Assembly (NCBI GenBank): GCA_025359505.1
Contig: JANYHH010000035.1
Coordinates: 21,966-85,965, forward strand
From: Deinococcales bacterium
Lineage (GTDB): Bacteria; Deinococcota; Deinococci; Deinococcales; JAAFIG01
Direction: 5' to 3'
Length of the DNA stretch: 64,000 nt
Made by a program: the position numbers and the translations under genes. The notes beneath the pieces were generated by a model. The model saw only the letters and a program-made list of their open reading frames with translations. It was not told the origin of the DNA and ran no database searches. This document shows positions 1-64,000 of this stretch, piece after piece; the stretch's first letter is position 1; every line of letters starts with the position of its first letter.

Positions 1-2879
1 CCACATCACCACCGCCCGCAATCGCCTCCAGCAGCTTCGCGTCGCGTGACACGCGCACGGCGGCGAGGCGGACTCGAGGGCGGGCGTCTGCGATCAGAAA
101 ATCGAGTTTGAAGCTCGGGTCAATGCTGGCAAGTGCAGCAATGGCGGCGGCGGCAATCGCTTCTCTCGGGTCGTCCAGATGCGGGCGCAGCGTCTCGAAG
201 CTCGCCCCCCAGCGGCACAGCACCTCGAGCGCTCGTGGGAGCTGAGTTTCGGGCAAGCCATCCAGCGCAGCCTCGAGCAATCCGGGGTCAGCCTGCCCGC
301 CCTGCGCGGCCAGCTCGAGCAATTCGGCGGCACTGGTCAAGCTAGCTTTCACTGGCGCGGCTCGAGTAGTTTGCACGGTATTTCGAGTTGCGGCGGCTCG
401 AGTCGGCACGGTGTCTGGCTCAAGCTGCTTGGCTTTGCCTTGATCCTCGAGTGGCTGCCCCTCCAAAGATTTGCCCTCGAGCGAGAGCGCTGCAATGATG
501 CCCGCGCCGTGCTTGGTGACACGCTGTTGGTTCCAACCTGACAACTCGAGCAGGTCGCCTGCGGTTTTCGGCTGTGCCTTCACAACCGCCAGCAGTTCTG
601 TATTGCTGAACTCATCCCCCAGTGGTTCATCCACGTCGCGCAGGTTGTTCTGCTGATGACGGTAACTTTTCAGCGCCCCAATCTGTGCGATGCGCGTCAT
701 CGGTGGCATTCGCGTCACGGCGGCAGGATTGAGCAGCGCGATGATTTCCGCGCCGAACTTCTGGAGTTTCTGCGCCCCGACGCCCGGCGCGAGCAGCAGC
801 TCCTCGAGATTCTGCGGGTTCTGACTCGCCACGCCGCGCAGCACGCCGTCGTTGATGATCGTGCTGGGTGAAACGCGGTCTCTGGCGGCGCGGTGCTCGC
901 GCCACAGGGTCAATTGCGTCTCGAGATCGGATTCTGGCGCGGCCACGGCTCGAGTGGAACTGGTCATTCCACCGCCGATGATCTCGAGCAGATCAGCGCC
1001 GTACTTATCAACTTTGCCTTGACCAATGCCGTTCACCTCGAGCAGCGCCTCGGTGGATGTCGGGCGACGCTCCAAGAGTTCCTGCAAGCTCTTGTCCGAG
1101 AACACGACATACGGCGGCACGCTGTCGCGCTTGGCGCGATCCGTGCGGTACGAGCGCAGCCGCATCTCGAGATCACCCGCGCCACTCGAGTTTGGCGACG
1201 CTGCGCCTGAGCTTGTCACACTCCCCGAGCCTGCCACGACCAATCCCGCCTCGAGTTGCAACGAACCCTCCCTGAGCAGCTTGTCGAGCGCGGCGCTGAC
1301 CGTGATGCGTCCCGCGTCGCGCAAAGCCCCGTACAACGGGTCGCGCATCAAGCCCGCTGCCTCGAGCGTGTTGGACTCCGCGCCCGTGACGAATTTAATC
1401 AGTTTGTCGCGTGACAGTCGCTGACCCCTTGTGGCTGCCAGCAACGCATTGCTGACCAGCGCCGCACCGCGATTGGCTTTCGGCGCTCGAGCTTTGACGG
1501 CTGACAGCCCGCCGATGTTGCCGAGGCTCGGGTCGCAAGCGTCGCACTTGCCGCACGGCGGCAGGCGCTCACCGAAATGCCCGACCAGAAACGCCCTCCG
1601 GCACGCGCTCGTCTCGGCGTAGCCGACGACTTTCTCCAGCGCCACACCCTCGAGCCTGCGCCGCGTGTGAAGCTTGGTGTAATCGACTTGCTTCTTGGCG
1701 TTGACGACCCGAAACGCGCCGCCGTCGCTCTGCAAATTGCCGTTCTCGAGCAATAGTTTCACGGCGACGTTGACAGGCGTGCTGTTGAAGCCCCCCAAGC
1801 GCCCGATCACGTCGCCAGCCGTGCCCGGCGCATCCTCGAGCGAGCGCAGGACTTTACGCACCAGTTGCTCCTCGGGGTAGTTCATTTCCATCAATCGCTT
1901 GCGGGTGATTAAATCCGACAAGCTGTACAGCAGCGCCGCGTGCGCCTCAAAGCCGTCGCGCCCAGCGCGTCCCGCCTCTTGGTAGTACGCCTCCAACGTG
2001 CTGGGCATCGCGTAATGCACGACCAGCCGCACGTCCGGCTTGTCAATGCCCATGCCGAAGGCGACGGTCGCTACCAAACACTCGGTTTGACCAGATAAAA
2101 ACCTGTCCTGCACGGCTGAGCGCTGCTTATCGGGCAGCCCAGCGTGGTACGCCTCGACGCCCAAATACTGCGCGACTTCCTCGGTGCTTTTGCGCGTGGC
2201 GCAGTAGACAATGCACGACCCCGGATGCGCGGCCCGCAGCCCATGCAGCGCCTCGAGCTTCTGCGCTTTCGTGACCGTGTGAGCACTGAAGGTCAGGTTG
2301 CGACGATCGAAACTACCGACCTGCACCAGCGGATCGCGCAGCAGCACCTTGGCGATTTCCTCGCGCACCTTCGGCGTGGCGGTCGCCGTCAGCGCTAAAC
2401 GCGGCGCGGTAATTCCCGACAGCAAATCTCCCAGCAGCAAATAATCGGGTCTGAAATCGTGCCCCCACTGCGACACGCAGTGCGCCTCGTCCACCACGAC
2501 CAGATCAGCTCGCTCGAGCAGACTGCGTGAAGCCCGCGCCCGCTCCGGCGCGATGTAAATCAGTTTGTACTCCCCCGCGTGAATGCCGCGCCACGCGGTC
2601 GTGGACTGCGCTTCACTCAGGCTCGAGGCGAGATACGTCGCGGGCACACCCTTGCGGTTCAGCGCATCCACCTGATCCTTCATCAGCGCGATCAGCGGGC
2701 TAATCACGACTGTCGTCCCGCTCATCAGCGTCGCAGGCAACTGATACGTCAACGACTTGCCGCCGCCCGTCGGCAGCACCGTCAAGCAATCGCGCCCTGA
2801 TAGCACGGCCTGCACGGTCTCGAGCTGCAACGTCCTGAACCCCGCGTGCCCGAAGCGCTTCAATGCCGCCTCGAGCATT
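1..2879 (-). pseudogene. recQ: ATP-dependent DNA helicase RecQ (helicase core, Zn/RQC region, three HRDC-like segments, extra C-terminal HEAT-like tail). The frame is broken by one extra base inside the Walker A codons, and the 3' end runs off the window.
   Basis: Own minus-strand translation. ATG at 2879 gives [40 protein letters not shown], then GQVVDV... and TAG at 2702-2700. Shifting one base restores [10 protein letters not shown]...[20 protein letters not shown]...[19 protein letters not shown] plus three HRDC-like blocks, open to position 1. It is absent from the ORF track because it is split and reaches the window edge. Confidence 0.8.
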
Positions 2880-2987
2880 GCGGGGGTGGGATGTTCGGTG
2901 TTCACAAAATGATTCAACCAGATTTCGCTAGAAAACGCGAATGCTGCGACTCAATCGCTCGAGCCTCGAGACGCTGTAGATTTTTCG

Positions 2988-3116
2988 CCTCTCCCTGCGG
3001 GTGAGGGGGTGAGCGCAGCGAATGCACTTGACTTCGACCTTGACGTTCAAGGGCAACTCGCTGCGCTCGCCCCCCTCACCCGCCTGCGGCGGCCTCTCCC
3101 ACGGCGGGGAGAGGCG
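2988..3116. repeat. Nested palindromic (REP/MITE-like) element: a ~23-bp imperfect stem (3000-3022 / 3059-3082) followed by a second hairpin (3093-3116)
   Basis: gggtgagggggtgagcgcagcga pairs with tcgctgcgctcgcccccctcaccc. gcctctccc/gggagaggc forms the second hairpin. The element lies between the recQ start and the UbiD-family stop. Confidence 0.6.
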
Positions 3117-4980: not shown

Positions 4981-5087
4981 GATTCGCACTCTAGGCTCGA
5001 GGGCGCGGGTCGGGGTAGGGGCGTTCGTATGCCCTCGAGTGACGAACTTGTCAGCCGCAGCACACAAATGCACCTCGAGCCGCCGCT

Positions 5088-10222: not shown

Positions 10223-10233
10223 CGCGCCCCACA

Positions 10234-11465: not shown

Positions 11466-11990
11466 ATGAAGTGGCTGTGGCTGGTTTTCTTGGCGTTGCT
11501 GGGTTCGCCAGCGCTGGCGCACTCGGTCGCGGTGGACATGGATGTTTTCCTCAGGGCCGGGCGCTTGATCGTGCTGATGGGTGGACCCGGCGGCCAGCCG
11601 CTCAACAACGCTAAACTCGAGTACGTGCTGTTTAACGAGGGCGGTCAGACGTACCGATCCCCATTGCCGCAGGTCGCGGACGGTGAGTACGGTGCACAAG
11701 CACCGAAAGCGGCGGCGGGTACGTACACATTGCTGCTGCGCGACACGACCTTTCAGGGCGAAGCGCTCGAGGCGCAAGCGGTGATCGCCTACCCGCCGTC
11801 TAAACCACTGCGTTTGACATTGCCGCCGTCCAAAGTCGGTGCGCCGGACGCGACATTGCTGATTGCGCTGACCGTCGCGCCGGTCGGCTTGAGTCTGCTG
11901 GTGCTGGTCTTCATTCTGGTCAGTCGCCCTAAACCCAGAGCGCTCGAGGCGCAGGTGCTCGAGGTAAAACCACTCGAGGAGTCGCGGTGA
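11466..11990 (+). CDS. Secreted, C-terminally membrane-anchored protein with predicted mature N-terminal His (possible CopC/Ig-like metal-binding protein)
   Basis: Signal peptide ...SPALA|HS, a beta-rich middle region, and a TM anchor LLIALTVAPVGLSLLVLVFILV. It overlaps the next gene by GTGA. Confidence 0.5.
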   Translation: MKWLWLVFLALLGSPALAHSVAVDMDVFLRAGRLIVLMGGPGGQPLNNAKLEYVLFNEGGQTYRSPLPQVADGEYGAQAPKAAAGTYTLLLRDTTFQGEALEAQAVIAYPPSKPLRLTLPPSKVGAPDATLLIALTVAPVGLSLLVLVFILVSRPKPRALEAQVLEVKPLEESR

Positions 11991-26543: not shown

Positions 26544-27140
26544 GGGTGCAGATTACGACGCGGGTCTCGAGCTTAGTTTCAAACTGAGTGCGGTACTGCT
26601 CGAGGTCGCCTTTGAAACGTTGAAACTTTGCACACCCAATTTACCCCGTGGCTCGAGACCGTCGTGTTGGTCAAGGACGTACCGCTCGAGAAACCTGTTC
26701 GTGCTTGTGATTGCGGTGCTGCGTTGCGTTGCACTCGAGGGTGCGGTGATCGCGCTCGGATCGCTCAACGGCGGCGCGTTGCCCGGTGCTTGAATCACGC
26801 TCGGTTCCACCCGCACTTGGCTCGAGCGCGAAAGTCGCGTGATGGAGTACCCGCTCGAGCTGTAACGCATCACCCGACCACTGTACAAGCATTTGAAACT
26901 GCCAAACGACGCTTGTCCCGAGGCTGGGGACGACACTCGAGGCCATTTGTCCCCGCGTCCGTCCTCGAGACTGTGGTTTGGGTAAGCACTCCTAGAAAAC
27001 GCCGTGCGGGATTGTGATACCATCTTTGCCGCATCACCTGTGACAACCGTTTCCGTTTCAACTCGCAAGAGAACGCCCCTCAGGACGCCCTCGTGTGAGC
27101 GTATGCGCGAACAAGAAGTAGAGAGGGAGGAGGGGACATC

Positions 27141-30111: not shown

Positions 30112-30156
30112 ACTTGTGAGCCAAGTCATGCCTGTGAGCGTAGAGAGGAACTATTC

Positions 30157-30729: not shown

Positions 30730-30742
30730 GGGGGCACAAACC

Positions 30743-32060: not shown

Positions 32061-32156
32061 GCTCGAGAGAAGTTTTGCTTGAGAGAAGTTTTGGTAGTGC
32101 AGCCCGTAAAAGTCTCGAGATCAACTCGAGCCAGATCAAGGCATTAGGGGGTAACT

Positions 32157-33893
32157 ATGGCAGGCAAAATCAAGAAAATTGCCGGGCCAGCGGTGATCGT
32201 CGAGAGTCTCGACGGCGCGAAGATGAACGACATCGTTCGCGTCGGTAAAGAGCAACTCGTCGGCGAGATCATCCGCTTGGATGGCAACGAATGCTTCGTG
32301 CAGGTTTACGAGGACACCAACGGTCTGACGGTCGGCGAGGACGTGATCTCCACGAACCTGCCGCTGGCTGTGGAACTGGGGCCCGGAATGCTCAACGGTG
32401 TCTTCGACGGTATTCAGCGCCCACTGGACAAAATCCGCGAGGCATCTGGCGATTTCATCGCCAGGGGCGTCAACGTCAAATCGCTGTCCCGCGAGCAAAA
32501 GTGGGACTTCACGCCGGGCGTCAAGGTCGGCGATCAGGTCGAGGGCGGCTCGAGCCTCGGAACTGTGCCGGAGTTCTCGTTCACGCACAAGATTCTCGTG
32601 CCGCCAACGGTTTCCGGCAAAATCAAGAGCATCAAACCCGCTGGTAGCTACACGATTGAAGAGGTCGTGGCGACGCTCGAGGATGGCACTGAGTTGAAGA
32701 TGTACCACAACTGGGCGGTGCGCCGCGCACGCCCGGTCACGCGCAAGCTCGACCCGAACCTGCCGTTCCTCACCGGAATGCGGATTCTGGACGTGCTCTG
32801 CCCGCTGACCGCTGGCGGCACGGCCGCGATTCCGGGCCCGTTCGGTAGCGGCAAGACCGTCACGCAGCAGTCAATCGCTAAATACGGCAATGCCGACATT
32901 GTGGTCTACGTCGGTTGCGGCGAGCGCGGCAACGAGATGACGGACGTATTGGTCGAATTCCCGGAACTCGAGGATCCCAAAACGGGTAAGCCGCTGATGC
33001 AACGCACGATTCTCTTGGCGAACACCAGCAACATGCCGGTCGCCGCTCGAGAAGCCTCGCTGTACTGCGGCGTCACGCTCGCCGAGTACTTCCGCGATCA
33101 GGGCTACGCCGTGAGCATGATGGCGGACAGCACGAGCCGTTGGGCGGAAGCGTTGCGCGAAATCGCGTCGCGTTTGCAAGAAATGCCCGCCGAGGAAGGC
33201 TACCCGCCGTACCTCTCGAGCCGCTTGTCCGCCTTCTACGAGCGTGCCGGTCGCGTCACGACCCTCGCGGGCGACGCTGGCAGCGTTTCGGTCATCGGCG
33301 CGGTTTCCCCAGCCGGTGGCGATCTCTCCGAACCCGTCACGCAATCCACGCTCCGCATCACTGGGGCGTTCTGGGCGCTTGACGCGAGCCTCGCCCGCGC
33401 CCGCCACTTCCCGGCGATCAACTGGGCAGGCAGCTACAGCTTGTTCATCAACGTCCTCGAGCCTTGGTACAGAGAGAACATCGCGGCCGATTACCCAGAG
33501 AAGCGCAAGGAACTGATTGTGCTGCTGCAACGCGAAGCCGCGCTTCAGGAAGTCGTGCAACTCGTCGGGCCGGACGCATTGGCAGACAACGAGCGCCTGT
33601 CGCTCGAGGTTGGCCGCATCATCCGCGAGGATTTCCTGCAACAAAACGGTTACGACAAAGTGGACGCTTCGTGCAGCATGGAAAAAGCCTACGGCATGAT
33701 CGACATGATGCTCGAGCTGTACAAATCCGGCGATAAGATGCTCAAAAGCGGCGGAGCAATCAGTGACTTCTTAGATGACGCTGCCGTGATCGAAAAAGTC
33801 GGTCGCGCCCGCTTCGTGCCAGAAGCCGAGTTCCCCGCTTACAAAGGCGAGTACATGAAGATGCTCGAGACGGCGTTCAAGGCCAAAGCTTAA
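32157..33893 (+). CDS. atpA: V/A-type ATPase catalytic subunit A
   Basis: Walker [10 protein letters not shown], the non-homologous-region insert, and the [10 protein letters not shown] block. Confidence 0.95.
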
Positions 33894-33897
33894 ACCC

Positions 33898-48257: not shown

Positions 48258-48817
48258 ATCAACCTCGAGCGGCGATACTCGAGCGGGGAGACGCGCATCA
48301 GGCGTTTGAAATTCGCGTTGAAGGCGCTCAGGCTCTGAAAACCGACCTCGAGCGCAATCTCGATCACGGGCTTGGCCGGTGATTCGAGACGGGCACAGGC
48401 GGCTTTGACCCGAGCGCGGTGCAGCACCTCGAGCGGCGTGGCATGGTGGTATGTGCGAAAGAGTTTGTAGAGCTTGGACTCGCTGACCAGTGCTACGGCT
48501 GCCATCTGCGCGACATTTTCAAACTCGAGCGAATTCTGGACGAGTGCTGCGACGAGTTGCGCTTCGCGCTTGGCTGGCTCGAGACCATCGGGGCGGCAGA
48601 GTTTGCAGGCTCTGAACCCCGCACCCACCGCCTCGAGTGGTGTGGCGTAAAAGCGGCGATTCTCGAGTTTCGGCACGCGAGGCGGTTTGCACGATGGGCG
48701 GCAGTAGATTCTGGTGCTGCTGACGCCGACGACGAACAGCCCATCCAAACTGTGGTCGCCCGTGAAAGCCCGCTCGAGCAGTTGCTGGTGATTCATCGCT
48801 GCATTCTGCGCTGCCAA
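48254..48817 (-). CDS. adaA: Ada-type regulator: N-terminal Zn methylphosphotriester-repair domain + AraC HTH
   Basis: Cys ligands in the two motifs CRPSCKPP and FRACKLCRP, then an AraC-type HTH. GTGA overlap with ogt. Confidence 0.8.
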   Translation of the reverse strand: MAAQNAAMNHQQLLERAFTGDHSLDGLFVVGVSSTRIYCRPSCKPPRVPKLENRRFYATPLEAVGAGFRACKLCRPDGLEPAKREAQLVAALVQNSLEFENVAQMAAVALVSESKLYKLFRTYHHATPLEVLHRARVKAACARLESPAKPVIEIALEVGFQSLSAFNANFKRLMRVSPLEYRRSRLM

Positions 48818-48855: not shown

Positions 48856-49365
48856 TCACTGTTGGAACAGGGCTGTATCTTCGGTCGTTTGAAACAAAAG
48901 TGTTCCAACAGCGATCACGTGCTTCAAAGGGATTTTTGGATTGTTGATGTCCTTACTGCCGTCTGCGTGCCATTTGGCTTCCCATTTTGCAAAGAACGCT
49001 TCTAGATCGCTAGGACTGACGCGGTAGATCGAAATGATTTTAATGCCTTCGTAGACGGCGAAGATCCATGGAACGAGACGGTACTTCTGGAGAATTCTAG
49101 GGTTGAGGTGATGGTGCGTGGTGAACTGTTTTTGTTTGAGAACGTTGACCGTTTTCAGTTCGTACTCGTTGCCATTAGCGTCAATCGCATCGTTGCCTTC
49201 TCTGCCCGCGATCACCTTCAAGCCAGTCAGCAACAAGACCTGCAACAGCTTGCCGCCGTTATCCTGAAAAATGTCGTCAATGCCGTGACGGGTGGCGAGC
49301 GCTTGAAACTGCTCCAAGTAAGGAAACAGCTCCTCGAGCTGCTCGAGATCATCATGTGGTCTCAC
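48856..49365 (-). CDS. Type II restriction endonuclease, PvuII family (predicted CAGCTG)
   Basis: Aligns along its length with R.PvuII as I recall it: HGI(N/D)[15 protein letters not shown](I/L)TGL, GREGNDA(V/I)D, EYELK, THHH(M/L)NP, VPWIFA(I/V)Y, DINNPKIP. Confidence 0.85.
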
Positions 49366-49672: not shown

Positions 49673-50707
49673 ATGACCGCAGCGAGCCGCTTGATTCACT
49701 CCCAGCTTCCGGCGTACCGCACAGCGCTTGGTGAGTGTCACTGTGGCGATTCCCTCGAGTTGCTGCGACAGCTTCCAGACAACTCCCTCAACTTGGTGAT
49801 GACCAGTCCACCCTTCGCGTTGCAACGCGAAAAAGAGTACGGCAATCGCTCGCAAGCCGATTACGTCGCATGGCTCAGTCAATTCGCCCGCTTGGTGTTT
49901 GAGAAACTGCGCGATGACGGTAGTTTCGTGCTTGATTTGGGTGGCGCGTATCAAAAAGGCGTCCCCTCGAGAAGCCTATACAATTTTCGTGTGCTGCTCG
50001 AGTTCTGCGACGAGATTGGCTTTCATCTGGCAGAGGATTTTTACTGGTTCAATCCCGCGAAGCTGCCCAGCCCAATCGAATGGGTCAACAAACGCAAGAT
50101 TCGCGCCAAAGACGCGGTGAACACGATCTGGTGGTTCTCCAAAACGCCATTTCCAAAAGCTGACGTGACCCGCGTACTGACCGAGTACAGCGACCGCATG
50201 AAGAAGCTGCTGCGAGACCCAGAGAGTTACTACACCCCGCAAAAACGCCCGTCGGGTCACGATATCGGCAGCGCTTTCGCTAAAGACAACGGTGGTGCGA
50301 TTCCGTCAAACCTGTTGCAAATCCCCAACACCGAAGCCAATACTCAGTATCTCGAGTATTGCCGAGCGGCTGGAATCAAAGGACATCCCGCTCGCTTCCC
50401 CGCGAAGCTGCCCGAGTTTTTCATTCGGATGCTGACCGATCCCAATGATTTGGTGCTGGATATCTTCGCGGGTTCAAACACCACGGGCGCGGTCGCCCAA
50501 GCCGAGGGGCGGCGCTGGCTGGCATTTGAGATTGAGCAAAACTATGTCGCCAGCTCAGCCTTCAGGTTCTTGCAGCGTTCAATGCCTGCCACGCAGGTCT
50601 GTGCAGTGCATCAGCAGGTGCTGCAAGGGCAGACCCTCGAGTTGCCATTGCCGCTGGCTACGCCGCAATCGACGCTGTTTGAATTCCCAGTAGCGGCTGA
50701 CGATTAG
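49673..50707 (+). CDS. DNA methyltransferase, beta-class N4-cytosine/N6-adenine type, M.PvuII-like
   Basis: TSPPF catalytic motif near the N-terminus and DIFAGSNTTG SAM motif near the C-terminus. 344 aa, with PvuII-like gene arrangement. Confidence 0.85.
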   Translation: MTAASRLIHSQLPAYRTALGECHCGDSLELLRQLPDNSLNLVMTSPPFALQREKEYGNRSQADYVAWLSQFARLVFEKLRDDGSFVLDLGGAYQKGVPSRSLYNFRVLLEFCDEIGFHLAEDFYWFNPAKLPSPIEWVNKRKIRAKDAVNTIWWFSKTPFPKADVTRVLTEYSDRMKKLLRDPESYYTPQKRPSGHDIGSAFAKDNGGAIPSNLLQIPNTEANTQYLEYCRAAGIKGHPARFPAKLPEFFIRMLTDPNDLVLDIFAGSNTTGAVAQAEGRRWLAFEIEQNYVASSAFRFLQRSMPATQVCAVHQQVLQGQTLELPLPLATPQSTLFEFPVAADD

Positions 50708-52226: not shown

Positions 52227-52238
52227 TTGCGACCAGTG

Positions 52239-52318
52239 TACCTGAGCTGCCCTGTACCCGAGCTGTCCTGCACTCGAGCTGCCCTGTACTCGAGCTGCCC
52301 TGTACTCGAGCGGTCTTC
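52239..52318. repeat. 16-bp tandem repeat, 5 units (consensus TACTCGAGCTGCCCTG)
   Basis: Units start at 52239, 52255, 52271, 52287 and 52303. Three of them carry an intact CTCGAG. Confidence 0.9.
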
Positions 52319-54677: not shown

Positions 54678-54974
54678 GACGCCATTAGAACGTAAATTGC
54701 CAGCGCGTGTCATGGCTCGAGTCTGAAGCGAAACTGAACTCAAGCTGAGGACGCATTCAGCTTCGCCGTTATTGAAACTGAGAAAAACGGAGAAAAACTG
54801 CCTCGCACGATGAAGAAACTCGACTCGAGCGTTCACCAAAGCTGATTCAGGTTACGCTCGAGGCTCTGCTACACCACCTGGATGGTTTTCTCGAGAAAAC
54901 TCGAGTTGCGGTGCAGAGGAACGGGGACGCTCGAGCACTGAAAAAATTGTCGCTCGAGCATTGCAGCTTCAGCG

Positions 54975-57571: not shown

Positions 57572-57609
57572 AAGTAGCTCGAGTAAACAGAGATTCTTGA
57601 TTTGAGCAT

Positions 57610-58231: not shown

Positions 58232-58753
58232 TCACTCCTCGCGGCGTCCTTGGAGCATCAACTGGGCAAGTGTGGCGAACGTCGCTTCCACGCCAGCGCC
58301 GGTTTTCGCGCTGGCTCGCGTCAGACCGTACACGTCAAGCGCTGTGATCTGAGCAGCACTGACCTGCCAGTCCACGTGCAGGTCGGCTTTGTTGGCGATC
58401 ATCACGCTGGGAACGCTCGCCCCTCTGGCTTCGACGGTTTCGCGCAAACGCAAGGCGAACTCGAGGGTGTCCGGGCGGGTCGGGTCGAAGACCAGCAGGT
58501 AACCGTGCATGCCGCGCAGGTACGAGCTTTGCACCCGCTCGAACATCTCATCGCCGTTCAAGTCCCAGAGCATCAGTTGCACTTCACCGCTGGGGGTAAC
58601 GACGGTGCGGGCGTCGATTTTCGCGCCGATGGTCACGAGGTAGCGCTCGTCAAAAAGGCCGCTGACGAAGCGCTGAATCAAACTGGTTTTTCCGACGCCC
58701 GGCGCACCGAGCAGGCAAACCTTTTTGTAGATCACTCGTCGATCACCGCGCAC
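58232..58753 (-). CDS. Ras-superfamily small GTPase
   Basis: G1 GAPGVGKTSL, G3 WDLNGDE, G4 NKADL. 173 aa. Confidence 0.85.
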   Translation of the reverse strand: MRGDRRVIYKKVCLLGAPGVGKTSLIQRFVSGLFDERYLVTIGAKIDARTVVTPSGEVQLMLWDLNGDEMFERVQSSYLRGMHGYLLVFDPTRPDTLEFALRLRETVEARGASVPSVMIANKADLHVDWQVSAAQITALDVYGLTRASAKTGAGVEATFATLAQLMLQGRREE

Positions 58754-58774
58754 TCCGTTTCAGGGTTTGGTATT

Positions 58775-60247
58775 TCAGGGCCTGGCGCTGATGATTTTAA
58801 TGCCATCTAGATTAAACCGCGCCACGCCAGCAATCGCGGTCACTCTGACCTGTGCGTTCGCAAGCCATGTTGTAGAGGCGCTGCCTGAAGCCAACAACAC
58901 CCCGTCGTTCGAGAGCTGTAAGCGCACAGTGCTGGGCGGCTCGAGCGCGATCATGGCGCGTTTGAGCACAAAGACCGACTCGAGCGACGCGAACGGGCGC
59001 AGGTTGGAGCGCACCTGCGCGGCCGGCAAGCCGTGCTGCTCGAGTAGCGCAGCAGGGTTGACCCCAAGCGGATCCCGCAGACCCTCGAGTACCCACCGAC
59101 CGTTTTGTTGGCTGACGTTGGTCAGCGCAATGCCGGGTGCGTTTCGCAGCGCTGCAAAGAACCCATCCCACCGCGCCCGCTCGCGTTGAGCGAGCAGCAG
59201 CACCCCGGCGATAGCCACGACAATCACAGCGATTAACGCAGCAACCCGCTGCGGTTGCCGAGGGTGAGTGACCCGTGGCGTTTTCGGTGCTCGAGCGCCA
59301 CGGTAGGCGGCGACCAGTAACTCGGTCAGTTCATTGCGGGTGATTTCAAAATGCTGGGGGTCGCCGTCAAACTCGTGCAGCGCATCATTGGAGTGCTGAT
59401 GGACGCCCTCTAAGAGTTGCGCGAGGCGGTCGCGCAGTTCCTGCGGTGGCGAGCCGCGCACGACGACCGCCACCACGGCCAGCGGCCCGGTTTCGACGTG
59501 AACGGCCAGCTCACCGAGCTGGAACTGATCGAGGTTATCGCTGGTCTGAAAAGAATCCTGCGCGAAATCGCGGATCGCGGTCAGCATCGCCGACACGAGA
59601 CCCGCATCCGGGGTGCTCGAGCCGACGACACCTTCGTGCAGCAACACCAGACCGGTCTCGCGGTGAATCAGGTAGGCTTGTTCGACGCGGTACTCCAAGG
59701 TTTTGAGTAAGACGATCTCACCAAACGAGCGCCCCGTGCGCGACGCCTCGAGCCGCCAACGAAGGGCTTCCAGCGTCAAAGTCTGGTCGATTGCGCGGCT
59801 CAAACTTGCCGAAGCCGCCGCGAGGGTGTGCGCGACCGTGCGCCGAATTGCCGGGCCGAGGATCGGAAAGAGAATTTCCGCCAGCACGAGCGGCGTGCGC
59901 TTGACCGACACGCGCAATGCGTCCTCGACCAGTGGTCGCAGTGACCGTGCGAACTGCGGATCGCGCCCAGCGCGTTCGAGCATTGCCTCAAGGAGTACGT
60001 CTGAGACGGCCGCTGTGCGCCCGGATTCGCTGAGCACCAGCGTCTCGAGCTGAGCGATGCGCTCGCGTTCCCCGGACAGCAGCAATGCCTGCAACTCGTC
60101 CAGACCCGCTGGGCTGAGCTGACCGTCCTCGAGCTGATCTGAGCTGAGTTGCTTGTCCTCGAGCTGATCTGAGCTGAGTTGCTTGTCCTCGAGCCGTTCT
60201 CCCTCAGGGGGCTGCGACGATTCCCGTGCGGGCAAAGCGCGGTTCAC
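58775..60247 (-). CDS. Bitopic membrane protein: acidic repeat N-terminus, cytoplasmic domain (possibly roadblock/LC7-like), one TM, and a periplasmic C-terminal domain
   Basis: GTGA overlap with the upstream coiled-coil gene. TM segment VAALIAVIVVAIAGVLLLA. The block YLIHRETGLVLLHEG...AMLTAIRDFAQDSF. Tandem LEDKQLSSDQ repeats. Confidence 0.6.
   Translation of the reverse strand: MNRALPARESSQPPEGERLEDKQLSSDQLEDKQLSSDQLEDGQLSPAGLDELQALLLSGERERIAQLETLVLSESGRTAAVSDVLLEAMLERAGRDPQFARSLRPLVEDALRVSVKRTPLVLAEILFPILGPAIRRTVAHTLAAASASLSRAIDQTLTLEALRWRLEASRTGRSFGEIVLLKTLEYRVEQAYLIHRETGLVLLHEGVVGSSTPDAGLVSAMLTAIRDFAQDSFQTSDNLDQFQLGELAVHVETGPLAVVAVVVRGSPPQELRDRLAQLLEGVHQHSNDALHEFDGDPQHFEITRNELTELLVAAYRGARAPKTPRVTHPRQPQRVAALIAVIVVAIAGVLLLAQRERARWDGFFAALRNAPGIALTNVSQQNGRWVLEGLRDPLGVNPAALLEQHGLPAAQVRSNLRPFASLESVFVLKRAMIALEPPSTVRLQLSNDGVLLASGSASTTWLANAQVRVTAIAGVARFNLDGIKIISARP
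60125..60194. repeat. 30-bp in-frame tandem repeat, 2.3 copies (gtcctcgagctgatctgagctgagttgctt)
   Basis: Exact duplication. Encodes LEDKQLSSDQ x2 in ORF 58775..60247, and each unit carries CTCGAG. Confidence 0.9.
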
Positions 60248-60834
60248 GCGAGGTCTTCACCATCGCGGCCGATCAGCAACGCCAGATCAGCCAGTGACCG
60301 CGCCAATGTCTGGCGATCCAACTTGTCGCGCTTCAAGACCGTGACCTCGCGCTCCAAAGTCGCTTGGGTGTGCTCGCGCAGCAGTTTTAAGTCAGCCGCG
60401 AAGCGCTTGCCTTGCTCGAGCAGCGCTTCGCGCAGCTCCGCGAGGCTGGTCTCACTCGTCTGCGCCTGCACCGATAGTTTGCGCTCCGCGTCGGTGCGAT
60501 CCATCTCTGCTTGTCTGGCGGTGCGCTCAGCTAACTCCAAGCGGGCATTGGCTTCGGTGGTCAAACGGTCTTTAAGCGCTTGCAGTTCCTGCTTGAAAAA
60601 CCCTTCCAGCGCCGCGATGCGCTCCCCACCCTCGCGCTCCATGCCCTCGAGATCGCCGCGCAAGCGCTCTTCAGAATGGGTCAAACGGCGCTCTATCTCA
60701 CGCGACTGCTGCCCGAAGAGGATATCGCGCACCTTTTCTAGATTGCCAGACTCGGGTAAGGCCTCGCTCGCCACGATCACAGCCAGAGGGGTTTCGGATT
60801 GGCCATTAGCTTTAGATTTACTTCCAGCGGACAT
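60244..60834 (-). CDS. Coiled-coil protein of unknown function
   Basis: 196 aa, heptad-rich and Glu/Arg/Leu-rich, with the motif VRDILFGQQSREIERRL. The start lies 8 nt after the kinase stop. Confidence 0.6.
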   Translation of the reverse strand: MSAGSKSKANGQSETPLAVIVASEALPESGNLEKVRDILFGQQSREIERRLTHSEERLRGDLEGMEREGGERIAALEGFFKQELQALKDRLTTEANARLELAERTARQAEMDRTDAERKLSVQAQTSETSLAELREALLEQGKRFAADLKLLREHTQATLEREVTVLKRDKLDRQTLARSLADLALLIGRDGEDLA

Positions 60835-60842
60835 AACTTGAA

Positions 60843-62477
60843 CTATAGACCAGATTGCTCAACGAAGCCGTGCTTTTCGTGCGCTGGATTTTGACCCGAG
60901 CGTTGAGCGCTTGGCAAGACCAGTGTAAAGCTGCTGCCGATCCCCAGTTGGCTGCTGACCTCGATGCGCCCGCCGTGCAGCTCGGCGAGTTTCTGCGATA
61001 GCGTCAAACCCAAACCGAAGCTGCGGTGATGGGCGGGGCTGTTTCTGGCTTGTGTGAACGGTTCAAAAATCTTGGCGAGGTCATCTTCCAGTAAACCAAT
61101 GCCGGTGTCCGTCACCATCAAGCGCTGCCAGTCTCCGTCCGTAGCGAGGCTCAGGCGCACAGAGCCGCCGCTCGAGGTGAATTTCACGGCGTTGGAGAGT
61201 AAGTTGACCAGAATCTGGCGGACTGAGCGCTCGTCGCCGTAAATCGGGGCTGGATTCGCACCCACCTCGAGCGACAGGATCACGCCGTTTTGCTGCGCGG
61301 CTGTTTTCAGCATCGACAAGCAACTCCGCAGCAACGGTGCGGGGCGGAGGAGTTTCGGCGCGAAGTTGGCGGCCCCCGCACCGAGCTTGGATAGATCCAG
61401 CAGATCGGAAATCAGCGCGAATAGGTGATCGCTGGCCGAGCGAATCTCCTTGGCGAAATCAATTTGGTCTGGGCTGAGCGATCCCAAGCCCGGATCGAGC
61501 AGCAAATCGCAGTAACCGCTGATCGCGTGCAGCGGCGTGCGTAACTCGTGCGTGACGAAATTGAAGAACTCACCCCGAGCACTGAGCGCCTGATCTGTGG
61601 CTTGGGCTGATCGCCTTGCAGCGCTTTCGCTGCGCCGCAGGGCGCTGGTGTCGATGCCCGTGATGACCACGTGACTGATTGCGCCGCTGCCATCGCGCAG
61701 TATTGAACACGACAGCGCCGCGTGTCGCCTCGAGCCATCGGTGGTGAGCCACGATAGTTCGCCGTGCGAGACCAGTGCGCCGCACAGCACGCGGCGCATC
61801 GCCCGCTCGACGAGGCGAGCGGCGACTGGATCGCTGAACAATGCCCAGATCGGCTGATGCTCAGCCATGGCGCTGTCGATGCCCAGCATCTGCTCGGCGC
61901 AAGGGTTCAAGCGGGCGACGCAACCCAACGCATCCGTCGCAATCGCCAGAAAATCTGCGTTTTGCGCGACCGCATCGTAAAAATTTCGCTCCTGCTCCAA
62001 CCGCGCCGCCGATCCGTGCCACTCGAGTTGCGAGGCTATGCCAGCGGCCAAATCTTGCAGCGCCTCGAGATCGCACGGGTCGGTGTGTGAGCGACGCACG
62101 CTGTCGATCACGCAGAGCGTGCCGATCAACTGTCCCTGTTTGGTGATGAGCGGCACGCCGATGTAAAAGCGCAGCTCGGGCAGCGCGGCGAACCGTTCGT
62201 CGCTGCCGACATCCAGCAGCACCTCGAGCACCGCGCTGGGTTGAACGCCAGCCAAGCCGCGAAGCAGGGCGTCCCACTCGAGACTTGCGGACGAGGTGAT
62301 GCCGATGATCGAAAACGGTTGCGCTGAGGCGGGCAGGATCATTGCCACGGGTGCAGCCAATAAGTGCAGCGCGACCCTGAGCAGCGGGGAAAGCGCTGAC
62401 TCTAGTCCTGCATCCAAACGCGCTCGCGCCGACGGATCGGCTGAAGGTGGTCGTCGGGTGGTCGTCGGTGACGCCAT
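60843..62477 (-). CDS. Cytoplasmic sensor histidine kinase (GAF + PAS + HisKA + HATPase_c)
   Basis: H-box FVTHELRTPLHAISGY, plus N/G1/G2 boxes (NLLSNAVKF, DTGIGL, GLGLTL). No TM segment. Confidence 0.9.
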   Translation of the reverse strand: MASPTTTRRPPSADPSARARLDAGLESALSPLLRVALHLLAAPVAMILPASAQPFSIIGITSSASLEWDALLRGLAGVQPSAVLEVLLDVGSDERFAALPELRFYIGVPLITKQGQLIGTLCVIDSVRRSHTDPCDLEALQDLAAGIASQLEWHGSAARLEQERNFYDAVAQNADFLAIATDALGCVARLNPCAEQMLGIDSAMAEHQPIWALFSDPVAARLVERAMRRVLCGALVSHGELSWLTTDGSRRHAALSCSILRDGSGAISHVVITGIDTSALRRSESAARRSAQATDQALSARGEFFNFVTHELRTPLHAISGYCDLLLDPGLGSLSPDQIDFAKEIRSASDHLFALISDLLDLSKLGAGAANFAPKLLRPAPLLRSCLSMLKTAAQQNGVILSLEVGANPAPIYGDERSVRQILVNLLSNAVKFTSSGGSVRLSLATDGDWQRLMVTDTGIGLLEDDLAKIFEPFTQARNSPAHHRSFGLGLTLSQKLAELHGGRIEVSSQLGIGSSFTLVLPSAQRSGQNPAHEKHGFVEQSGL

Positions 62478-62539
62478 GGCACTAGCCTACCAACAGCAGC
62501 CCTGCTGATGGTGATGATTTTAGCCCCGAGCCTCGGTGC

Positions 62540-63514
62540 TTAGACCATGCGCTGGCAAAGTGCGACGGCTGCGTCCCAGCCGATGACGCCGCCGGTCGCG
62601 CCGAGCGCGGAAACGCAGAGCGCACCCGTGGCATTGCCGATGCGGGCGCTCTCGAGCAGGTCAAACCCGCGCAATCGCGCTGCCAGAAACCCTGCGATGA
62701 ACGCATCGCCCGCGCCCGTCCCATCGATCGCTTCGACGCTTGGCGCGAGCACATCGTGATGTTCACCCCCCTTGTCCATCACGAACGATCCCTGTGGCCC
62801 CATCTTCAATGCCACGACCTGCCGCACGCCCAGCGCGAACAGTCCCAGCGCGATCTCTCGAGGGGACGCGCTTTCTGGTAAGCCCACAATGGCTCTTGCT
62901 TCGTGAATGCTCGGGCAGAAAATATCAGTCTGCTCGAGTACGGGTGCGATCAAACTTGACCAGCGCCCCGTCGCGTCCCAGACGCAATCGAGCGAGGTGG
63001 TTATTCCAAGCTCGGTGGCTCGAGCGAACAGGTCACTCGCGGGTTCACCGCGCTCGCCTTCCATCGCGGTCAAGATGAAAAAGCCAGCCAAGTGTAAAAC
63101 CTTGCAACCCCTCGCTTTGAGATCCTCGAGCGGCACGTCACTCGGGGTCAGTTTGGCGTTCGCGCCGATACTGTGCAGAAACGTGCGCTCGCCGTCGGGT
63201 GTGACCGTCACCAGACTCGAGGATGTGCCGGCTGTCAAATCGCGCTTGAGTAAACTCGAGTCGCAACCAACGCGCCTTGCTTCAGCCTCGAGAAAATCTC
63301 CGAAGCCGTCCGCGCCAATCCGTCCAATCAGTGCGACGCCCACGCCGAGCTTGGCGAGGTCGTACCCCGTGCTGGCTGCGCTGCCACCACTGTACAAACC
63401 GATCGTGTCCACCAACTCGAGTTGCCCCAATTGCGGCTGTTTGAGGACAGGACGCGCCACGCAATCGGCAACGACGATGCCCACGCAGGCCACGTCGATC
63501 GTCTCGAGCTTCAC
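62540..63514 (-). CDS. PfkB-family carbohydrate kinase
   Basis: GGSAAST N-terminal motif and the DGTGAGDAFIAGF C-terminal motif. Confidence 0.85.
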   Translation of the reverse strand: MKLETIDVACVGIVVADCVARPVLKQPQLGQLELVDTIGLYSGGSAASTGYDLAKLGVGVALIGRIGADGFGDFLEAEARRVGCDSSLLKRDLTAGTSSSLVTVTPDGERTFLHSIGANAKLTPSDVPLEDLKARGCKVLHLAGFFILTAMEGERGEPASDLFARATELGITTSLDCVWDATGRWSSLIAPVLEQTDIFCPSIHEARAIVGLPESASPREIALGLFALGVRQVVALKMGPQGSFVMDKGGEHHDVLAPSVEAIDGTGAGDAFIAGFLAARLRGFDLLESARIGNATGALCVSALGATGGVIGWDAAVALCQRMV

Positions 63515-64000
63515 GCGCCCCCCATGGAGGCTGGCTCGAGCTTAGCGACGCTGCCCGAGCGCTGACTCTCGAGCGCAGCGGTGAACAGGGCGTGACTGAG
63601 CGCAGCTTCGGTTGGCGTGCCGCACTGGAATCTGGGCGTGTTGCCCGCGACCTCATCGCAGAATGCGGCCCACATCTGCTGGATCGCATCGGTGAAGCCA
63701 AACTCGAAGATGCTCCCCGTGATCGTCGGGTAGACCGTTTCAAACCCAATGTCTTGCTCATGCCACGCCTGCGGCTGACCCGCTGTGTACGGCAATGTTC
63801 GCAGCGTCTTCGGGTGTTTCGTGCTGAACTCCGCGCTCAGCTCACTGCCGATCACGCGAATGAACCACGTGTTTGCCTCGCCCGGCGCGATGCGCTTCAT
63901 GCTCAGGGTCATCGGAAACTCGTAGTGTCCGAACCTCGAGTCCTCGAGCGCCACGCTGGTCAGCAGGTGCGCGTTGTCCCATGTCTCGCACGGAACCATA
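63511..64000 (-). CDS. Gfo/Idh/MocA-family oxidoreductase, C-terminal part (5' end outside the window)
   Basis: The ORF is open to the window edge. The assignment from the C-terminal alpha/beta-domain pattern is tentative. Confidence 0.5.
   Translation of the reverse strand, partial: MVPCETWDNAHLLTSVALEDSRFGHYEFPMTLSMKRIAPGEANTWFIRVIGSELSAEFSTKHPKTLRTLPYTAGQPQAWHEQDIGFETVYPTITGSIFEFGFTDAIQQMWAAFCDEVAGNTPRFQCGTPTEAALSHALFTAALESQRSGSVAKLEPASMGGA

What the first reader, a model, noticed from the sequence alone, without database searches (positions are those of the whole stretch)
1..64000. CTCGAG behaves as a highly iterated palindrome throughout the window
Hand counts of CTCGAG:
- 17 copies in 1-1260.
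- 9 in the 590-bp non-coding stretch 26550-27140.
- 11 in 30121-31744.
- 11 in 32101-33900.
- 21 in 58232-62477.

Extrapolated, this is a few hundred copies in 64 kb. Base composition predicts about 20 (my rough estimate at ~60% GC).

The hexamer occurs in all three codon phases: CTC-GAG Leu-Glu, xC-TCG-AGx Ser-Ser/Arg, and xCT-CGA-Gxx x-Arg-x. In atpA I see 6, 2 and 1 of these. It is found in genes on both strands and is densest in non-coding DNA. That points to a DNA-level signal rather than an amino-acid or codon preference.

No fixed flanking bases were evident. The motif also sits inside the units of two tandem repeats (52239-52318 and 60125-60194).

The closest known analogue is the cyanobacterial HIP1 octamer GCGATCGC. 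I know of no described CTCGAG equivalent. No CTCGAG-specific methyltransferase, nuclease or Vsr is encoded in this window.
Basis: partly seen in the sequence, partly recalled or inferred. Interest (0 to 1): 0.85.

Follow-up and report, generated by a model that had tools for sequence, protein, structure and literature searches.

The report
Hyper-abundant CTCGAG palindrome, Deinococcota lineage
The six-base palindrome CTCGAG occurs about 16 times more often than chance in this DNA and in every related uncultured Deinococcota genome examined, strongly enough to have changed protein sequences, which makes it a counterpart outside cyanobacteria of their still unexplained HIP1 repeat.

Summary
CTCGAG occurs 410 times in 64 kb. 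Composition predicts 21-35, a synonymous-codon shuffle predicts 66, and CTCGAG is the commonest hexamer by a factor of two.

It is a DNA-level signal:
- It is enriched in all three codon phases and in non-coding DNA.
- Flanking bases carry at most 0.11 bit per position.
- Leu-Glu dipeptides are 2.27x over-represented, while Glu-Leu is at 1.00x.

It is a lineage trait. Nine further contigs of an uncultured Deinococcota clade (46-60% GC; atpA, where present, 82-94% identical) hold 4.4-8.9 copies per kb, which is 8-45x expectation. Thermus shows none of this after codon control. Meiothermus relatives show a weak excess confined to phase 0.

Sites turn over by ordinary point substitutions at all six positions. 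They are nevertheless retained 2-5x better than synonymous controls, equivalent to a scaled fixation bias of about 3.

The clade also avoids nearly all other GC-rich 6-bp palindromes.

No CTCGAG-specific enzyme was found. The window does carry a restriction-modification system, but it is PvuII-type.

Best reading: a HIP1-like highly iterated palindrome kept up by a site-specific fixation bias. The agent is unidentified; I favour a methylation- or transformation-linked one. I found no prior description in the searchable literature.

The parts
1..64000 (.). 410 dispersed copies of the exact palindrome CTCGAG: mean spacing 156 bp, median 108 bp, largest gap 1,727 bp
   Evidence: Spacing is close to exponential (CV 1.07).
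2..2905 (-). recQ-like gene (three HRDC domains) with 27 copies, 9.3 per kb.
   Evidence: Positions; Pfam match.
26544..27140 (.). Intergenic region between divergent genes (an RlmI-like methyltransferase gene on the - strand and the V-ATPase operon on the + strand). It holds 9 copies, three adjacent pairs of which are exactly 33 bp apart, with no shared sequence between the sites.
32157..33893 (+). atpA (V-type ATPase subunit A) with 9 copies: 6 in phase CTC|GAG, 2 in phase C-TCG-AG and 1 in phase CT-CGA-G
   Evidence: Positions. Orthologue alignments show amino-acid replacements and fully synonymous alternatives at these positions.
54678..54974 (.). Intergenic cluster of 7 copies in 297 bp, at 54716, 54824, 54857, 54890, 54900, 54930 and 54953. 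Two of the spacings are 33 bp.
52237..52311 (.). Tandem repeat with a 16-bp unit (4.7 copies) carrying CTCGAG at 52273, 52289 and 52305
60125..60194 (-). Tandem repeat with a 30-bp unit (2.3 copies) inside gene 58775-60247. It carries CTCGAG at 60128, 60158 and 60188 and encodes repeated ...LEDKQLSSDQ...
11943..11978 (+). Three copies 15 bp apart at the 3' end of gene 11466-11990

Best explanation
CTCGAG is a highly iterated palindrome of the HIP type. It is a genome-wide signature of an uncultured Deinococcota clade.

SHOWN
- The unit is the exact hexamer in double-stranded DNA. It is not a shorter core, a longer repeat, a codon pair or a peptide.
- Copies arise and decay by ordinary point substitutions at all six positions.
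- Changes that complete a site are fixed preferentially, and changes that break one are disfavoured.
- The scaled strength is about 3: ln of the odds ratio at Leu-Glu is 2.97, and ln of motif enrichment over neighbour enrichment is about 2.8-3.4.
- Each genome therefore holds a steady 4.4-8.9 copies per kb whatever its GC content, while individual positions turn over.
- The pressure is strong enough to convert amino acids to Leu-Glu, Ser-Ser and x-Arg-x.

INFERRED
- A bias that senses the whole symmetric hexamer points to a homodimeric protein that recognises CTCGAG.
- My preferred agent, by analogy with HIP1, is a conserved CTCGAG-specific methyltransferase whose methylated sites are read by the recombination or natural-transformation pathway.
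- Kin DNA carrying intact sites would then be incorporated more often. That is a molecular drive acting like weak selection at every site.

I put about 0.9 on the shown layer. I put about 0.35 on this particular agent. A methylation-directed repair bias is the next most likely agent.
For: DNA-level, exact hexamer:
- Enrichment survives composition nulls and codon shuffles.
- All three phases and non-coding DNA are enriched.
- Flank information is at most 0.11 bit. CTC-N0-GAG occurs 410 times against 3-32 for other spacings.
- TCGA outside CTCGAG is below expectation: 193 copies against about 320.

Imprint on the proteome:
- Leu-Glu 2.27x, Glu-Leu 1.00x, Ser-Ser 1.51x.
- 70% of Leu-Glu dipeptides are CTCGAG against 10.6% expected.
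- Lineage-specific replacements to xSS, LE and AR appear in V-ATPase alignments.

Clade trait independent of GC:
- L081 46% GC, 45x. L083 53.5%, 25x. L085 49.5%, 26x. L086 55.7%, 16x. L423 59.9%, 11x. L299 60.1%, 25x.
- Thermus: 10 observed against 8.7 after a synonymous shuffle.

Retention with turnover:
- With Leu-Glu held constant, CTCGAG is retained in 53-96% of cases. Other Leu-Glu encodings are retained in 11-60%, and equal-degeneracy control dipeptides in 16-57%.
- In the closest pair (87.8% identity), 88 of 116 and of 103 sites are shared, against 51% for background hexamers. Of the 40 unshared sites, 20 differ at one base: 16 transitions, spread over all positions.
- Polarised changes: 7 gains and 4 losses. 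100 alignment columns are used by six genomes that each carry 36-43 sites. 44 columns are singletons and only 3 are universal.

Strength: ln of the odds is 2.97. One-off neighbours sit near expectation, as a fixation-bias equilibrium predicts.

Short-range spacing: a deficit below 23 bp and an excess at 29-34 bp (62 against 39, z = 3.8). This is compatible with a protein footprint.

HIP1 precedent:
- Cognate methyltransferases accompany HIPs (PMC4390886).
- HIP1 motifs are conserved beyond codon conservation (PMC5861425).
- Methylation- and homology-dependent stimulation of transformation, and correlation with DNA-uptake genes (bioRxiv 10.1101/2024.09.10.611283 and 10.64898/2026.06.24.733823).
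- Natural competence of Thermus and Deinococcus is established knowledge.
Against: - No CTCGAG-specific methyltransferase, endonuclease, Vsr or uptake receptor was found in the window. None was found in the roughly 130 kb of relatives' DNA held. The only DNA methyltransferase seen is PvuII-type.
- There is no methylome.
- A 6-bp tag discriminates poorly against GC-rich foreign DNA. Haloarchaeal loci reach 3.5 copies per kb by codon usage alone.
- Known uptake sequences are longer, asymmetric and about 1 per kb.
- Selection and biased conversion cannot be told apart from divergence data alone.
- Whether phages or plasmids of the clade share the signature could not be established.
- Only about 190 kb of clade DNA was seen, not whole genomes.
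Confidence: 0.45

Rival explanations
1. Methylation-directed or site-directed repair bias (the Elhai model for HIPs, or an extended Vsr-like system). Mismatches arising inside or next to a (hemi)methylated CTCGAG would be repaired towards the intact site. The motif would then ratchet up without serving any function.
For: It acts on every replicon and every position, so it explains thousands of weakly favoured sites (S about 3). It also explains retention at synonymous positions. HIPs co-occur with cognate methyltransferases in cyanobacteria (PMC4390886). E. coli Dcm/Vsr raising CCWGG is established knowledge. The pervasive palindrome avoidance shows heavy exposure to restriction-modification enzymes.
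Against: A Vsr-type enzyme protects only the methylated cytosine, yet gains and losses are spread evenly over all six positions. The deamination neighbours TTCGAG and CTTGAG are not depleted: 0.9x in the window and 2-2.9x in L081. No m5C methyltransferase or Vsr was seen in any held locus. Deinococcota lack MutH (established knowledge).
Confidence: 0.2
2. Direct natural selection for binding sites of an abundant dimeric DNA-binding protein (nucleoid organisation, condensation or segregation). Density, rather than individual sites, would be the selected trait.
For: Density is constant at 4.4-8.9 per kb across 46-60% GC, while positions turn over. There is a deficit of pairs closer than 23 bp and an excess at 30 and 33 bp, about three helical turns. 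Xu et al. reached a similar view for HIP1 (PMC5861425).
Against: Spacing is otherwise close to random (CV 1.07; gaps up to 1.7 kb). That gives no sign of selection for even coverage. Selection of about 1/Ne per site at roughly 20,000 sites (my extrapolation) is demanding. No candidate protein is known. Kilobase-scale periodicity cannot be tested in 64 kb.
Confidence: 0.15
3. A self-marker for a DNA-end-processing or defence nuclease. This would be a symmetric analogue of Chi: dense CTCGAG would protect or identify host DNA.
For: Short Chi sites are frequent and over-represented in their hosts (established knowledge; for example the 5-mer of Bacillus subtilis). The clade shows signs of intense nuclease pressure.
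Against: Chi sites are asymmetric and strand-skewed, and a palindrome cannot be. Chi over-representation is a few-fold, not 16-45-fold. No AddAB/RecBCD-type gene lies in the window.
Confidence: 0.05
4. A by-product of codon usage, codon-pair bias or a preference for the Leu-Glu dipeptide.
For: In Thermus and haloarchaea, CTC and GAG are favoured codons and CTCGAG is 2-3.6x above dinucleotide expectation. 208 of the 319 coding copies are in the CTC|GAG phase.
Against: A synonymous shuffle gives 66 against 319 observed. Phases 1 and 2 are enriched 22x and 10x. Non-coding density is 11 per kb. CTC is only 19% of Leu codons outside Leu-Glu contexts. In the 46% GC relative, 58% of Leu-Glu dipeptides are CTCGAG against about 5% expected. 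Glu-Leu is not enriched and is never written GAGCTC.
Confidence: 0.01
5. Copies of one dispersed repeat or mobile element, or an assembly or linker artefact.
For: A few copies sit in short tandem repeats. Some intergenic pairs share a 33-bp spacing.
Against: Flanks carry at most 0.11 bit per position, and the intergenic pairs share no sequence. Copies lie in frame in conserved genes. The same trait appears in independent assemblies from NCBI, ENA, JGI and Logan.
Confidence: 0.01

Closest known systems
HIP1 (GCGATCGC) and the alternate HIPs of cyanobacteria (PMC4390886, PMC5861425)
   Same: Both are short GC-rich palindromes, 15-300x over-represented. Both occur in all reading frames and in non-coding DNA and are not part of a longer repeat. 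Both are shared by a whole lineage across different GC contents. Both are conserved beyond codon conservation while individual sites turn over. Both hosts otherwise avoid many palindromes. The function or cause is unresolved in both.
   Different: The sequence differs: HIP1 itself occurs 0 times in the window. This motif is a hexamer, not an octamer, and lies in a different phylum. Density is about 5-6 per kb, against roughly 1 per kb for HIPs as stated in PMC4390886. A cognate methyltransferase and kilobase-scale periodicity, both reported for HIP1, could not be tested here.
DNA uptake sequences (Neisseria DUS, Pasteurellaceae USS)
   Same: Both are lineage-specific short motifs accumulated by a transmission bias. 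Both are found inside genes in all frames and leave an imprint on protein sequence (established knowledge). The hosts belong to naturally competent groups.
   Different: DUS and USS are 9-12 bp, asymmetric, have an extended flanking consensus and occur about once per kb. CTCGAG is a symmetric 6-mer with uninformative flanks at about 6 per kb. No uptake receptor is known.
Dcm/Vsr very-short-patch repair raising CCWGG in E. coli
   Same: Both involve a palindromic methylation site whose frequency is pushed up by a DNA-level bias rather than by function.
   Different: The VSP effect is modest and acts on one cytosine. Here the excess is 16-45x, all six positions behave alike, and the deamination neighbours are not depleted.
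XhoI/PaeR7I-type restriction-modification (recognition site CTCGAG)
   Same: The recognition sequence is the same. CTCGAG methylation is reported in hot-spring metagenome genomes (bioRxiv 10.64898/2026.06.24.734251).
   Different: Restriction-modification systems normally cause avoidance of their site, which is what this clade shows for about 25 other palindromes. No XhoI-type gene was seen in the DNA held.

Membership tests
Highly iterated palindromes (HIP class) | Short palindromic word far above compositional and codon-aware expectation | tested here: met
   410 copies against 21-35 (orders 0-2) and against 66 after a synonymous shuffle. It is the top-ranked hexamer.
Highly iterated palindromes (HIP class) | Present in all reading frames and in non-coding DNA; not part of a longer repeat | tested here: met
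   Phases 208, 38 and 73, plus 91 non-coding copies. Flank information is at most 0.11 bit.
Highly iterated palindromes (HIP class) | Trait of a whole lineage, across genomes of different composition | tested here: met
   Nine further contigs, 46-60% GC, 4.4-8.9 copies per kb, 8-45x expectation. Absent in Thermus after codon control.
Highly iterated palindromes (HIP class) | Motif instances conserved more than expected from codon or amino-acid conservation | tested here: met
   53-96% retention, against 16-57% for control dipeptides and 11-60% for other Leu-Glu encodings. 76-85% against 51% for background hexamers.
Highly iterated palindromes (HIP class) | A methyltransferase specific for the palindrome (or its core) encoded in the genome | not testable with these tools
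   Whole genomes of the clade could not be read. None was found in the window or in about 130 kb of relatives. The only DNA methyltransferase seen is PvuII-type.
Highly iterated palindromes (HIP class) | Kilobase-scale (10-90 kb) periodicity of motif density | not testable with these tools
   A 64-kb window is too short for this test. At short range, spacing is near-exponential with a small excess at 30-33 bp.
HIP1 proper | The sequence is GCGATCGC | tested here: not met
   0 copies in the window and 0 in L423.
DNA uptake sequences (DUS/USS) | Asymmetric core of 9-12 bp with an extended flanking consensus | tested here: not met
   The motif is a symmetric hexamer and its flanks are uninformative.
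DNA uptake sequences (DUS/USS) | Sequence-biased DNA uptake by the competence machinery | not testable with these tools
   This needs uptake or transformation assays.
Dispersed repeat / MITE / REP family | Copies share sequence beyond the core | tested here: not met
VSP-repair-driven site excess (Dcm/Vsr type) | Depletion of the C-to-T neighbours of the methylated cytosine; Vsr and an m5C methyltransferase present | tested here: not met
   Neighbours are at 0.88-0.89x in the window and 1.5-2.9x in relatives. Turnover is even across all positions. No Vsr or m5C methyltransferase is present in the DNA held; whole genomes were not seen.
Chi-like recombination hotspots | Asymmetric site with strand skew relative to replication | tested here: not met
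   The site is its own reverse complement, so no skew is possible.

The most novel reading that the evidence does not exclude
CTCGAG is the recognition tag of an undescribed Deinococcota system, arisen independently of cyanobacterial HIP1. The system would mark kin DNA, probably by methylation. It would bias recombination, transformation or repair towards intact sites. If so, hyper-abundant palindromes are a general, convergent outcome of one class of mechanism rather than a cyanobacterial peculiarity. This clade would then offer a second system, with a different motif and phylum, in which to find the responsible enzyme by comparative genomics.
Probability: 0.3. Interest if true: 0.85.

Novelty: new variant of a known kind. 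Interest (0 to 1): 0.78.

Why it matters
HIP1 has been known for about three decades without an agreed cause. One reason is that it is essentially a single phylum-wide case. A second case changes that. This one is independent and stronger per kilobase, has a different sequence, and sits in a different phylum.

It makes three competing ideas testable by comparison: a cognate methyltransferase with biased repair, a transformation or uptake tag, and a chromosome-architecture signal. The question becomes which gene families co-occur with the motif in both lineages.

It also shows how far a DNA-level bias can reshape proteins. This window holds about 165 more Leu-Glu dipeptides than amino-acid frequencies predict, in roughly 18,500 residues.

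Practical consequences:
- CTCGAG density is a near-diagnostic marker for binning contigs of this clade. It flags at least one contig filed under a cyanobacterial MAG.
- XhoI would cut this DNA about every 156 bp.
- Composition-based gene-transfer and binning tools will be skewed by the motif.

Tried and rejected
- Identifying the source genome. An exact-protein look-up found nothing.

- Rfam and tRNA scans gave no taxonomic anchor.

- One-base neighbours as a signature of Vsr-type repair. They sit near expectation. That is what any stationary fixation bias predicts, so the test does not discriminate.

- A 'multi-nucleotide writing' mechanism. Distant pairs show an excess of unshared sites with 3 or more differences: window against L082, P = 1e-5; L083 against L085, P = 0.003. 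In the closest pair, however, half of the unshared sites differ by a single base and the excess is marginal (P = 0.04). Ordinary stepwise substitution under directional pressure is enough.

- Depletion of near-cognate Leu-Glu encodings. CTGGAG is at 0.17x and CTCGAA at 0.12x. The effect is real but only moderately significant by mismatch class, and it is confounded by codon context. I did not build on it.

- Longer palindromes or hairpins as the unit. Rejected: 8-mer palindromes around the core are at or below expectation.

- Allomeiothermus silvanus as a culturable model. Its V-ATPase region looked enriched (7.9x). Its plasmid pMESIL01 shows only 3.6x, almost all in phase 0, so the effect there is weak.

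- Scans for CTCGAG-dense phages and metagenome contigs. Most hits were GC-rich chance or codon-driven matches. They yielded one new clade contig (L299) and no phage that could be tied to the clade.

- Pfam scans of unannotated neighbours in relatives found no DNA enzyme.

Full report
**1. The observation**

CTCGAG occurs 410 times in the 64,000-base window.

| Null model | Expected count |
|---|---|
| Markov order 0 | 20.6 |
| Markov order 1 | 26.3 (shuffles 27.1 +/- 5.1, maximum 40) |
| Markov order 2 | 35.5 |
| Markov order 3 | 99.4 |
| Markov order 4 | 338.8 |

The high-order values are inflated by the motif's own sub-words. 410 of 455 CTCGA pentamers and 410 of 603 TCGA tetramers lie inside the hexamer.

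TCGA outside CTCGAG is below expectation: 193 copies against about 320.

CTCGAG is the commonest hexamer by a factor of two. The runners-up are its overlaps.

**2. The signal is in the DNA, not in codons or peptides**

I built a 63-gene model covering 87% of the window.

- 319 copies are coding (5.7/kb) and 91 are non-coding (11.0/kb).
- Phases are 208, 38 and 73.
- Shuffling synonymous codons within genes gives 66 +/- 6 (57, 1.7 and 7.2 by phase).
- Shuffling codon order gives 27 +/- 5.

Outside Leu-Glu contexts, CTC is 19% of Leu codons and GAG is 56% of Glu codons. Yet 208 of 298 Leu-Glu dipeptides are written CTCGAG, against 31.5 expected.

At the protein level:
- Leu-Glu is 2.27x over-represented (298 against 131.5).
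- The reverse dipeptide Glu-Leu is exactly at expectation (131 against 131.5).
- Ser-Ser is at 1.51x.

GAGCTC never occurs.

Flanking positions carry at most 0.11 bit. Only the spacing CTC-N0-GAG is enriched: 410, against 3-32 for N1 to N12.

Eight-base palindromes around the core are at or below expectation.

The intergenic clusters share no sequence apart from the hexamer.

**3. It is a lineage trait**

The source genome itself was not found. The closest atpA relatives are unnamed metagenomic proteins at 82-94% identity. Meiothermus and Allomeiothermus follow at 78-79%.

| Locus | Source | atpA identity to window | GC | Copies per kb | Ratio to dinucleotide expectation |
|---|---|---|---|---|---|
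| L082 | ENA ERZ27272753 | 94% | 59.6% | 4.4 | 8x |
| L081 | GCA_013298595.1 | 89% | 46.4% | 6.1 | 45x |
| L083 | GCA_025352125.1 | 87% | 53.5% | 6.3 | 25x |
| L084 | Logan SRR23617199 (identical to part of L083) | 87% | 54.8% | 5.1 | 18x |
| L085 | GCA_043775825.1 | 87% | 49.5% | 4.6 | 26x |
| L329 | ENA ERZ22858803 | not computed (99% to L085) | 53.0% | 6.7 | not computed |
| L086 | GCA_965188805.1 | 82% | 55.7% | 5.2 | 16x |
| L423 | GCA_012030945.1 | 84% | 59.9% | 6.4 | 11x |
| L299 | JGI metagenome | no atpA | 60.1% | 8.9 | 25x |

CTCGAG is the top hexamer in every one of these loci for which rank was computed. Density stays roughly constant while the background expectation varies several-fold.

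I made a codon alignment of the V-ATPase operon, 8.5 kb.
- Each clade genome carries 36-43 sites, in all three phases.
- Thermus caliditerrae carries 10, all in phase 0, against 8.7 after a synonymous shuffle.
- A Meiothermus-like contig carries 9 against 3.8.
- Allomeiothermus silvanus carries 23 against 7.6, with 21 of them in phase 0.

The first 50 kb of the A. silvanus plasmid pMESIL01 show only 3.6x. The strong phenomenon therefore begins inside the uncultured clade. The nearest named genera show at most a faint effect confined to synonymous choices.

**4. How sites behave in evolution**

Third codon positions between most clade members are near saturation, at 40-48% identity. Even so, sites are shared more than background hexamers.

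| Pair | Sites shared | Background hexamers identical |
|---|---|---|
| L083 / L085 | 72% | 37% |
| window / L086 | about 39% | 17% |
| window / L081 | about 28% | 12% |

With the amino acids held constant (conserved Leu-Glu), CTCGAG is retained in 53-96% of cases. Other Leu-Glu encodings are retained in 11-60%, and control dipeptides of equal degeneracy in 16-57%.

Turnover is nonetheless high.
- 100 alignment columns are used by six genomes. 44 are used by one genome only and 3 by all six.
- The alignments show many lineage-specific replacements to xSS, LE and AR-x at otherwise variable positions.

In the closest pair (L329 and L083; 17.2 kb; 87.8% identity):
- 88 sites are shared out of 116 and 103.
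- Of the 40 unshared sites, 20 differ at one base. These are 16 transitions and 4 transversions, spread over positions 1/6, 2/5 and 3/4.
- 12 differ at two bases and 8 at three or more.
- Polarising with an outgroup gives 7 gains and 4 losses.

Sites are therefore made and lost by ordinary substitutions. No position is privileged.

The excess of multi-base differences in more distant pairs fits repeated directional steps. It does not need a templated event.

**5. Strength of the bias**

One-off neighbours of the motif are close to expectation: 0.67-1.31x in the window. A stationary process that favours only the complete site predicts exactly this.

The ratio of motif enrichment to neighbour enrichment gives a log value of about 2.8-3.4. 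The Leu-Glu odds ratio gives 2.97.

That is the range of codon-usage selection or GC-biased gene conversion. It is weak per site but effective over thousands of sites.

**6. Spatial pattern**

Spacing is nearly exponential: CV 1.07, median 108 bp, gaps up to 1,727 bp.

Pooled over clade loci and compared with a phase-preserving jitter null:
- Pairs closer than 23 bp are under-represented (z = -4 to -2.3).
- Pairs 29-34 bp apart are over-represented (62 against 39, z = 3.8), with peaks at 30 and 33 bp.
- Five adjacent non-coding pairs in the window are exactly 33 bp apart.

This is a small effect. Two of the pooled loci are related to each other. I treat it as a hint of a protein footprint, not as a result.

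**7. Genomic context**

The clade avoids nearly all other GC-rich 6-bp palindromes.

| Palindrome | Window observed / expected | Pooled relatives observed / expected |
|---|---|---|
| GCGCGC | 1 / 140 | 16 / 79 |
| CCGCGG | 0 / 48 | 1 / 38 |
| CTGCAG | 0 / 26 | 1 / 27 |
| GAGCTC | 0 / 26.5 | 0 / 22.9 |

GGCGCC, GACGTC, GCCGGC, CCCGGG and AGGCCT behave the same way. Thermaceae outgroups sit near expectation for all of these.

The window encodes one Type II restriction-modification system.
- The endonuclease matches Pfam Endonuc-PvuII (E = 5e-66) and PDB 1eyu (E = 1.5e-66).
- The methyltransferase matches the M.PvuII structure 1boo (E = 9e-149).
- CAGCTG is absent from the window.

No CTCGAG-specific enzyme, m5C methyltransferase or Vsr was seen in the window or in the relatives' loci.

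**8. Interpretation**

What is shown is a HIP-type phenomenon. An exact palindromic hexamer is kept at a steady high density. The cause is a persistent DNA-level fixation bias that acts on point substitutions and overrides codon and amino-acid preferences.

What produces the bias is inferred. Sensing a complete symmetric hexamer suggests a homodimeric sequence-specific protein.

For HIP1, the best current clues are:
- cognate methyltransferases (PMC4390886);
- conservation beyond codons (PMC5861425);
- methylation- and homology-dependent stimulation of natural transformation, and correlation with DNA-uptake genes (bioRxiv 10.1101/2024.09.10.611283 and 10.64898/2026.06.24.733823).

Thermus and Deinococcus are naturally competent (established knowledge). 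The clade also shows signs of intense restriction pressure.

I therefore favour a methylated kin-DNA tag read during recombination or transformation, at about 0.35. Next come a methylation-directed repair bias (about 0.2) and direct selection for an architectural protein's sites (about 0.15). The remainder is unknown.

A simple Vsr-type mechanism is disfavoured, because all six positions behave alike and the deamination neighbours are not depleted.

**9. Novelty**

Five full-text searches found no paper that links CTCGAG to HIP-like over-representation or to Deinococcota. The library does not hold most subscription-journal papers, so this is absence of evidence only.

I rate the finding as a new variant of a known kind. 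It has the same class of behaviour as HIP1 and the alternate HIPs. It differs in motif, in length, in having several-fold higher density, and in phylum.

**10. Limits**

- Only about 190 kb of clade DNA was examined.
- The genes in the window were called with a simple codon-usage model.
- Divergence data cannot separate selection from biased conversion.
- No methylation data were available.

Noticed in passing
window 48856-49365 (-) and 49673-50707 (+): A complete PvuII-type restriction-modification pair. The endonuclease matches Pfam Endonuc-PvuII (E = 5e-66) and the methyltransferase matches PDB 1boo (E = 9e-149). It lies next to an ada/ogt-like pair (47721-48817). CAGCTG occurs 0 times in the window against 26 expected. 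The two genes carry CTCGAG at about the usual density (2 and 5 copies).
   Followed up: yes
whole window; L081, L082, L083, L085, L086, L299: About 25 GC-rich 6-bp palindromes are 5- to 100-fold under-represented in the window and in the clade relatives. Examples are GCGCGC 1/140, CGCGCG 3/139, CCGCGG 0/48 and GAGCTC 0/26.5. Thermaceae outgroups do not show this. GAGCTC is 0 in every clade locus checked.
   Followed up: partly
window, all CTCGAG sites: The 8-mer CCTCGAGG occurs once against 25 expected from the flank frequencies (P about 3e-10). CCTCGAGC occurs 80 times and GCTCGAGG 58 times. Relatives show at most a mild deficit: 15 against about 33 pooled over eight contigs. This may reflect a lineage-specific 8-bp restriction specificity.
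   Followed up: partly
window, genome-wide: CTC-N1-GAG occurs only 3 times, against 14-32 for other spacings. TTCGAA is 0 against 22 expected in the window and absent or nearly so in most relatives, but L086 has 7. GTAC is 2.2x and AGCGCT 2.4x over expectation.
   Followed up: no
window 26566-26859, 54824-54895; pooled clade loci: Adjacent CTCGAG pairs favour spacings of 30 and 33 bp and avoid spacings below 23 bp: 62 against 39 for 29-34 bp, z = 3.8. Five non-coding pairs in the window are exactly 33 bp apart and share no internal sequence.
   Followed up: partly
L423 (GCA_012030945.1, contig JAAUUV010000018.1): The atpA protein on this contig is labelled 'Pleurocapsa sp. SU_196_0', a cyanobacterium. 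The contig has 83 CTCGAG in 12.9 kb, no HIP1 and a Deinococcota-type V-ATPase operon. It is probably a mis-binned contig of this clade.
   Followed up: partly
L355 (IMGVR_UViG_3300047160_002402), 14.5 kb: A prophage-like contig at 68% GC with an HK97-type capsid gene and ORFs that look like protease, terminase and integrase genes. It carries 83 CTCGAG (22x the dinucleotide expectation) and no GAGCTC. Its capsid is only about 26% identical to those of actinobacterial phages, and the host is unknown. CTCGAG hyper-abundance may therefore exist in other lineages or in phages.
   Followed up: partly
L088 (Allomeiothermus silvanus DSM 9946 chromosome) and L330 (plasmid pMESIL01, 1-50 kb): A cultured relative shows a weak form of the bias, almost entirely in phase 0. 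64% of V-ATPase Leu-Glu dipeptides are CTCGAG against about 22% expected. The excess is 7.9x in the V-ATPase region and 3.6x on the plasmid.
   Followed up: partly
window 33898-34350 (+); L085 11832-13928: A 150-aa protein resembling the SecDF P1 head lies between atpA and atpB in the window, L083 and L086. In L085 the same slot holds two genes (292 and 404 aa) with no Pfam match.
   Followed up: no
window 2-2905 (-): The RecQ helicase has three HRDC domains and a long C-terminal extension. It is cut off by the window edge.
   Followed up: no
L167 (IMGVR_UViG_3300017971_000277), 2.9 kb stored: A fragment of a viral contig at 58% GC in which AGCGCT (16 copies) and CTCGAG (13 copies) are the two commonest hexamers and GAGCTC is absent.
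   Followed up: no
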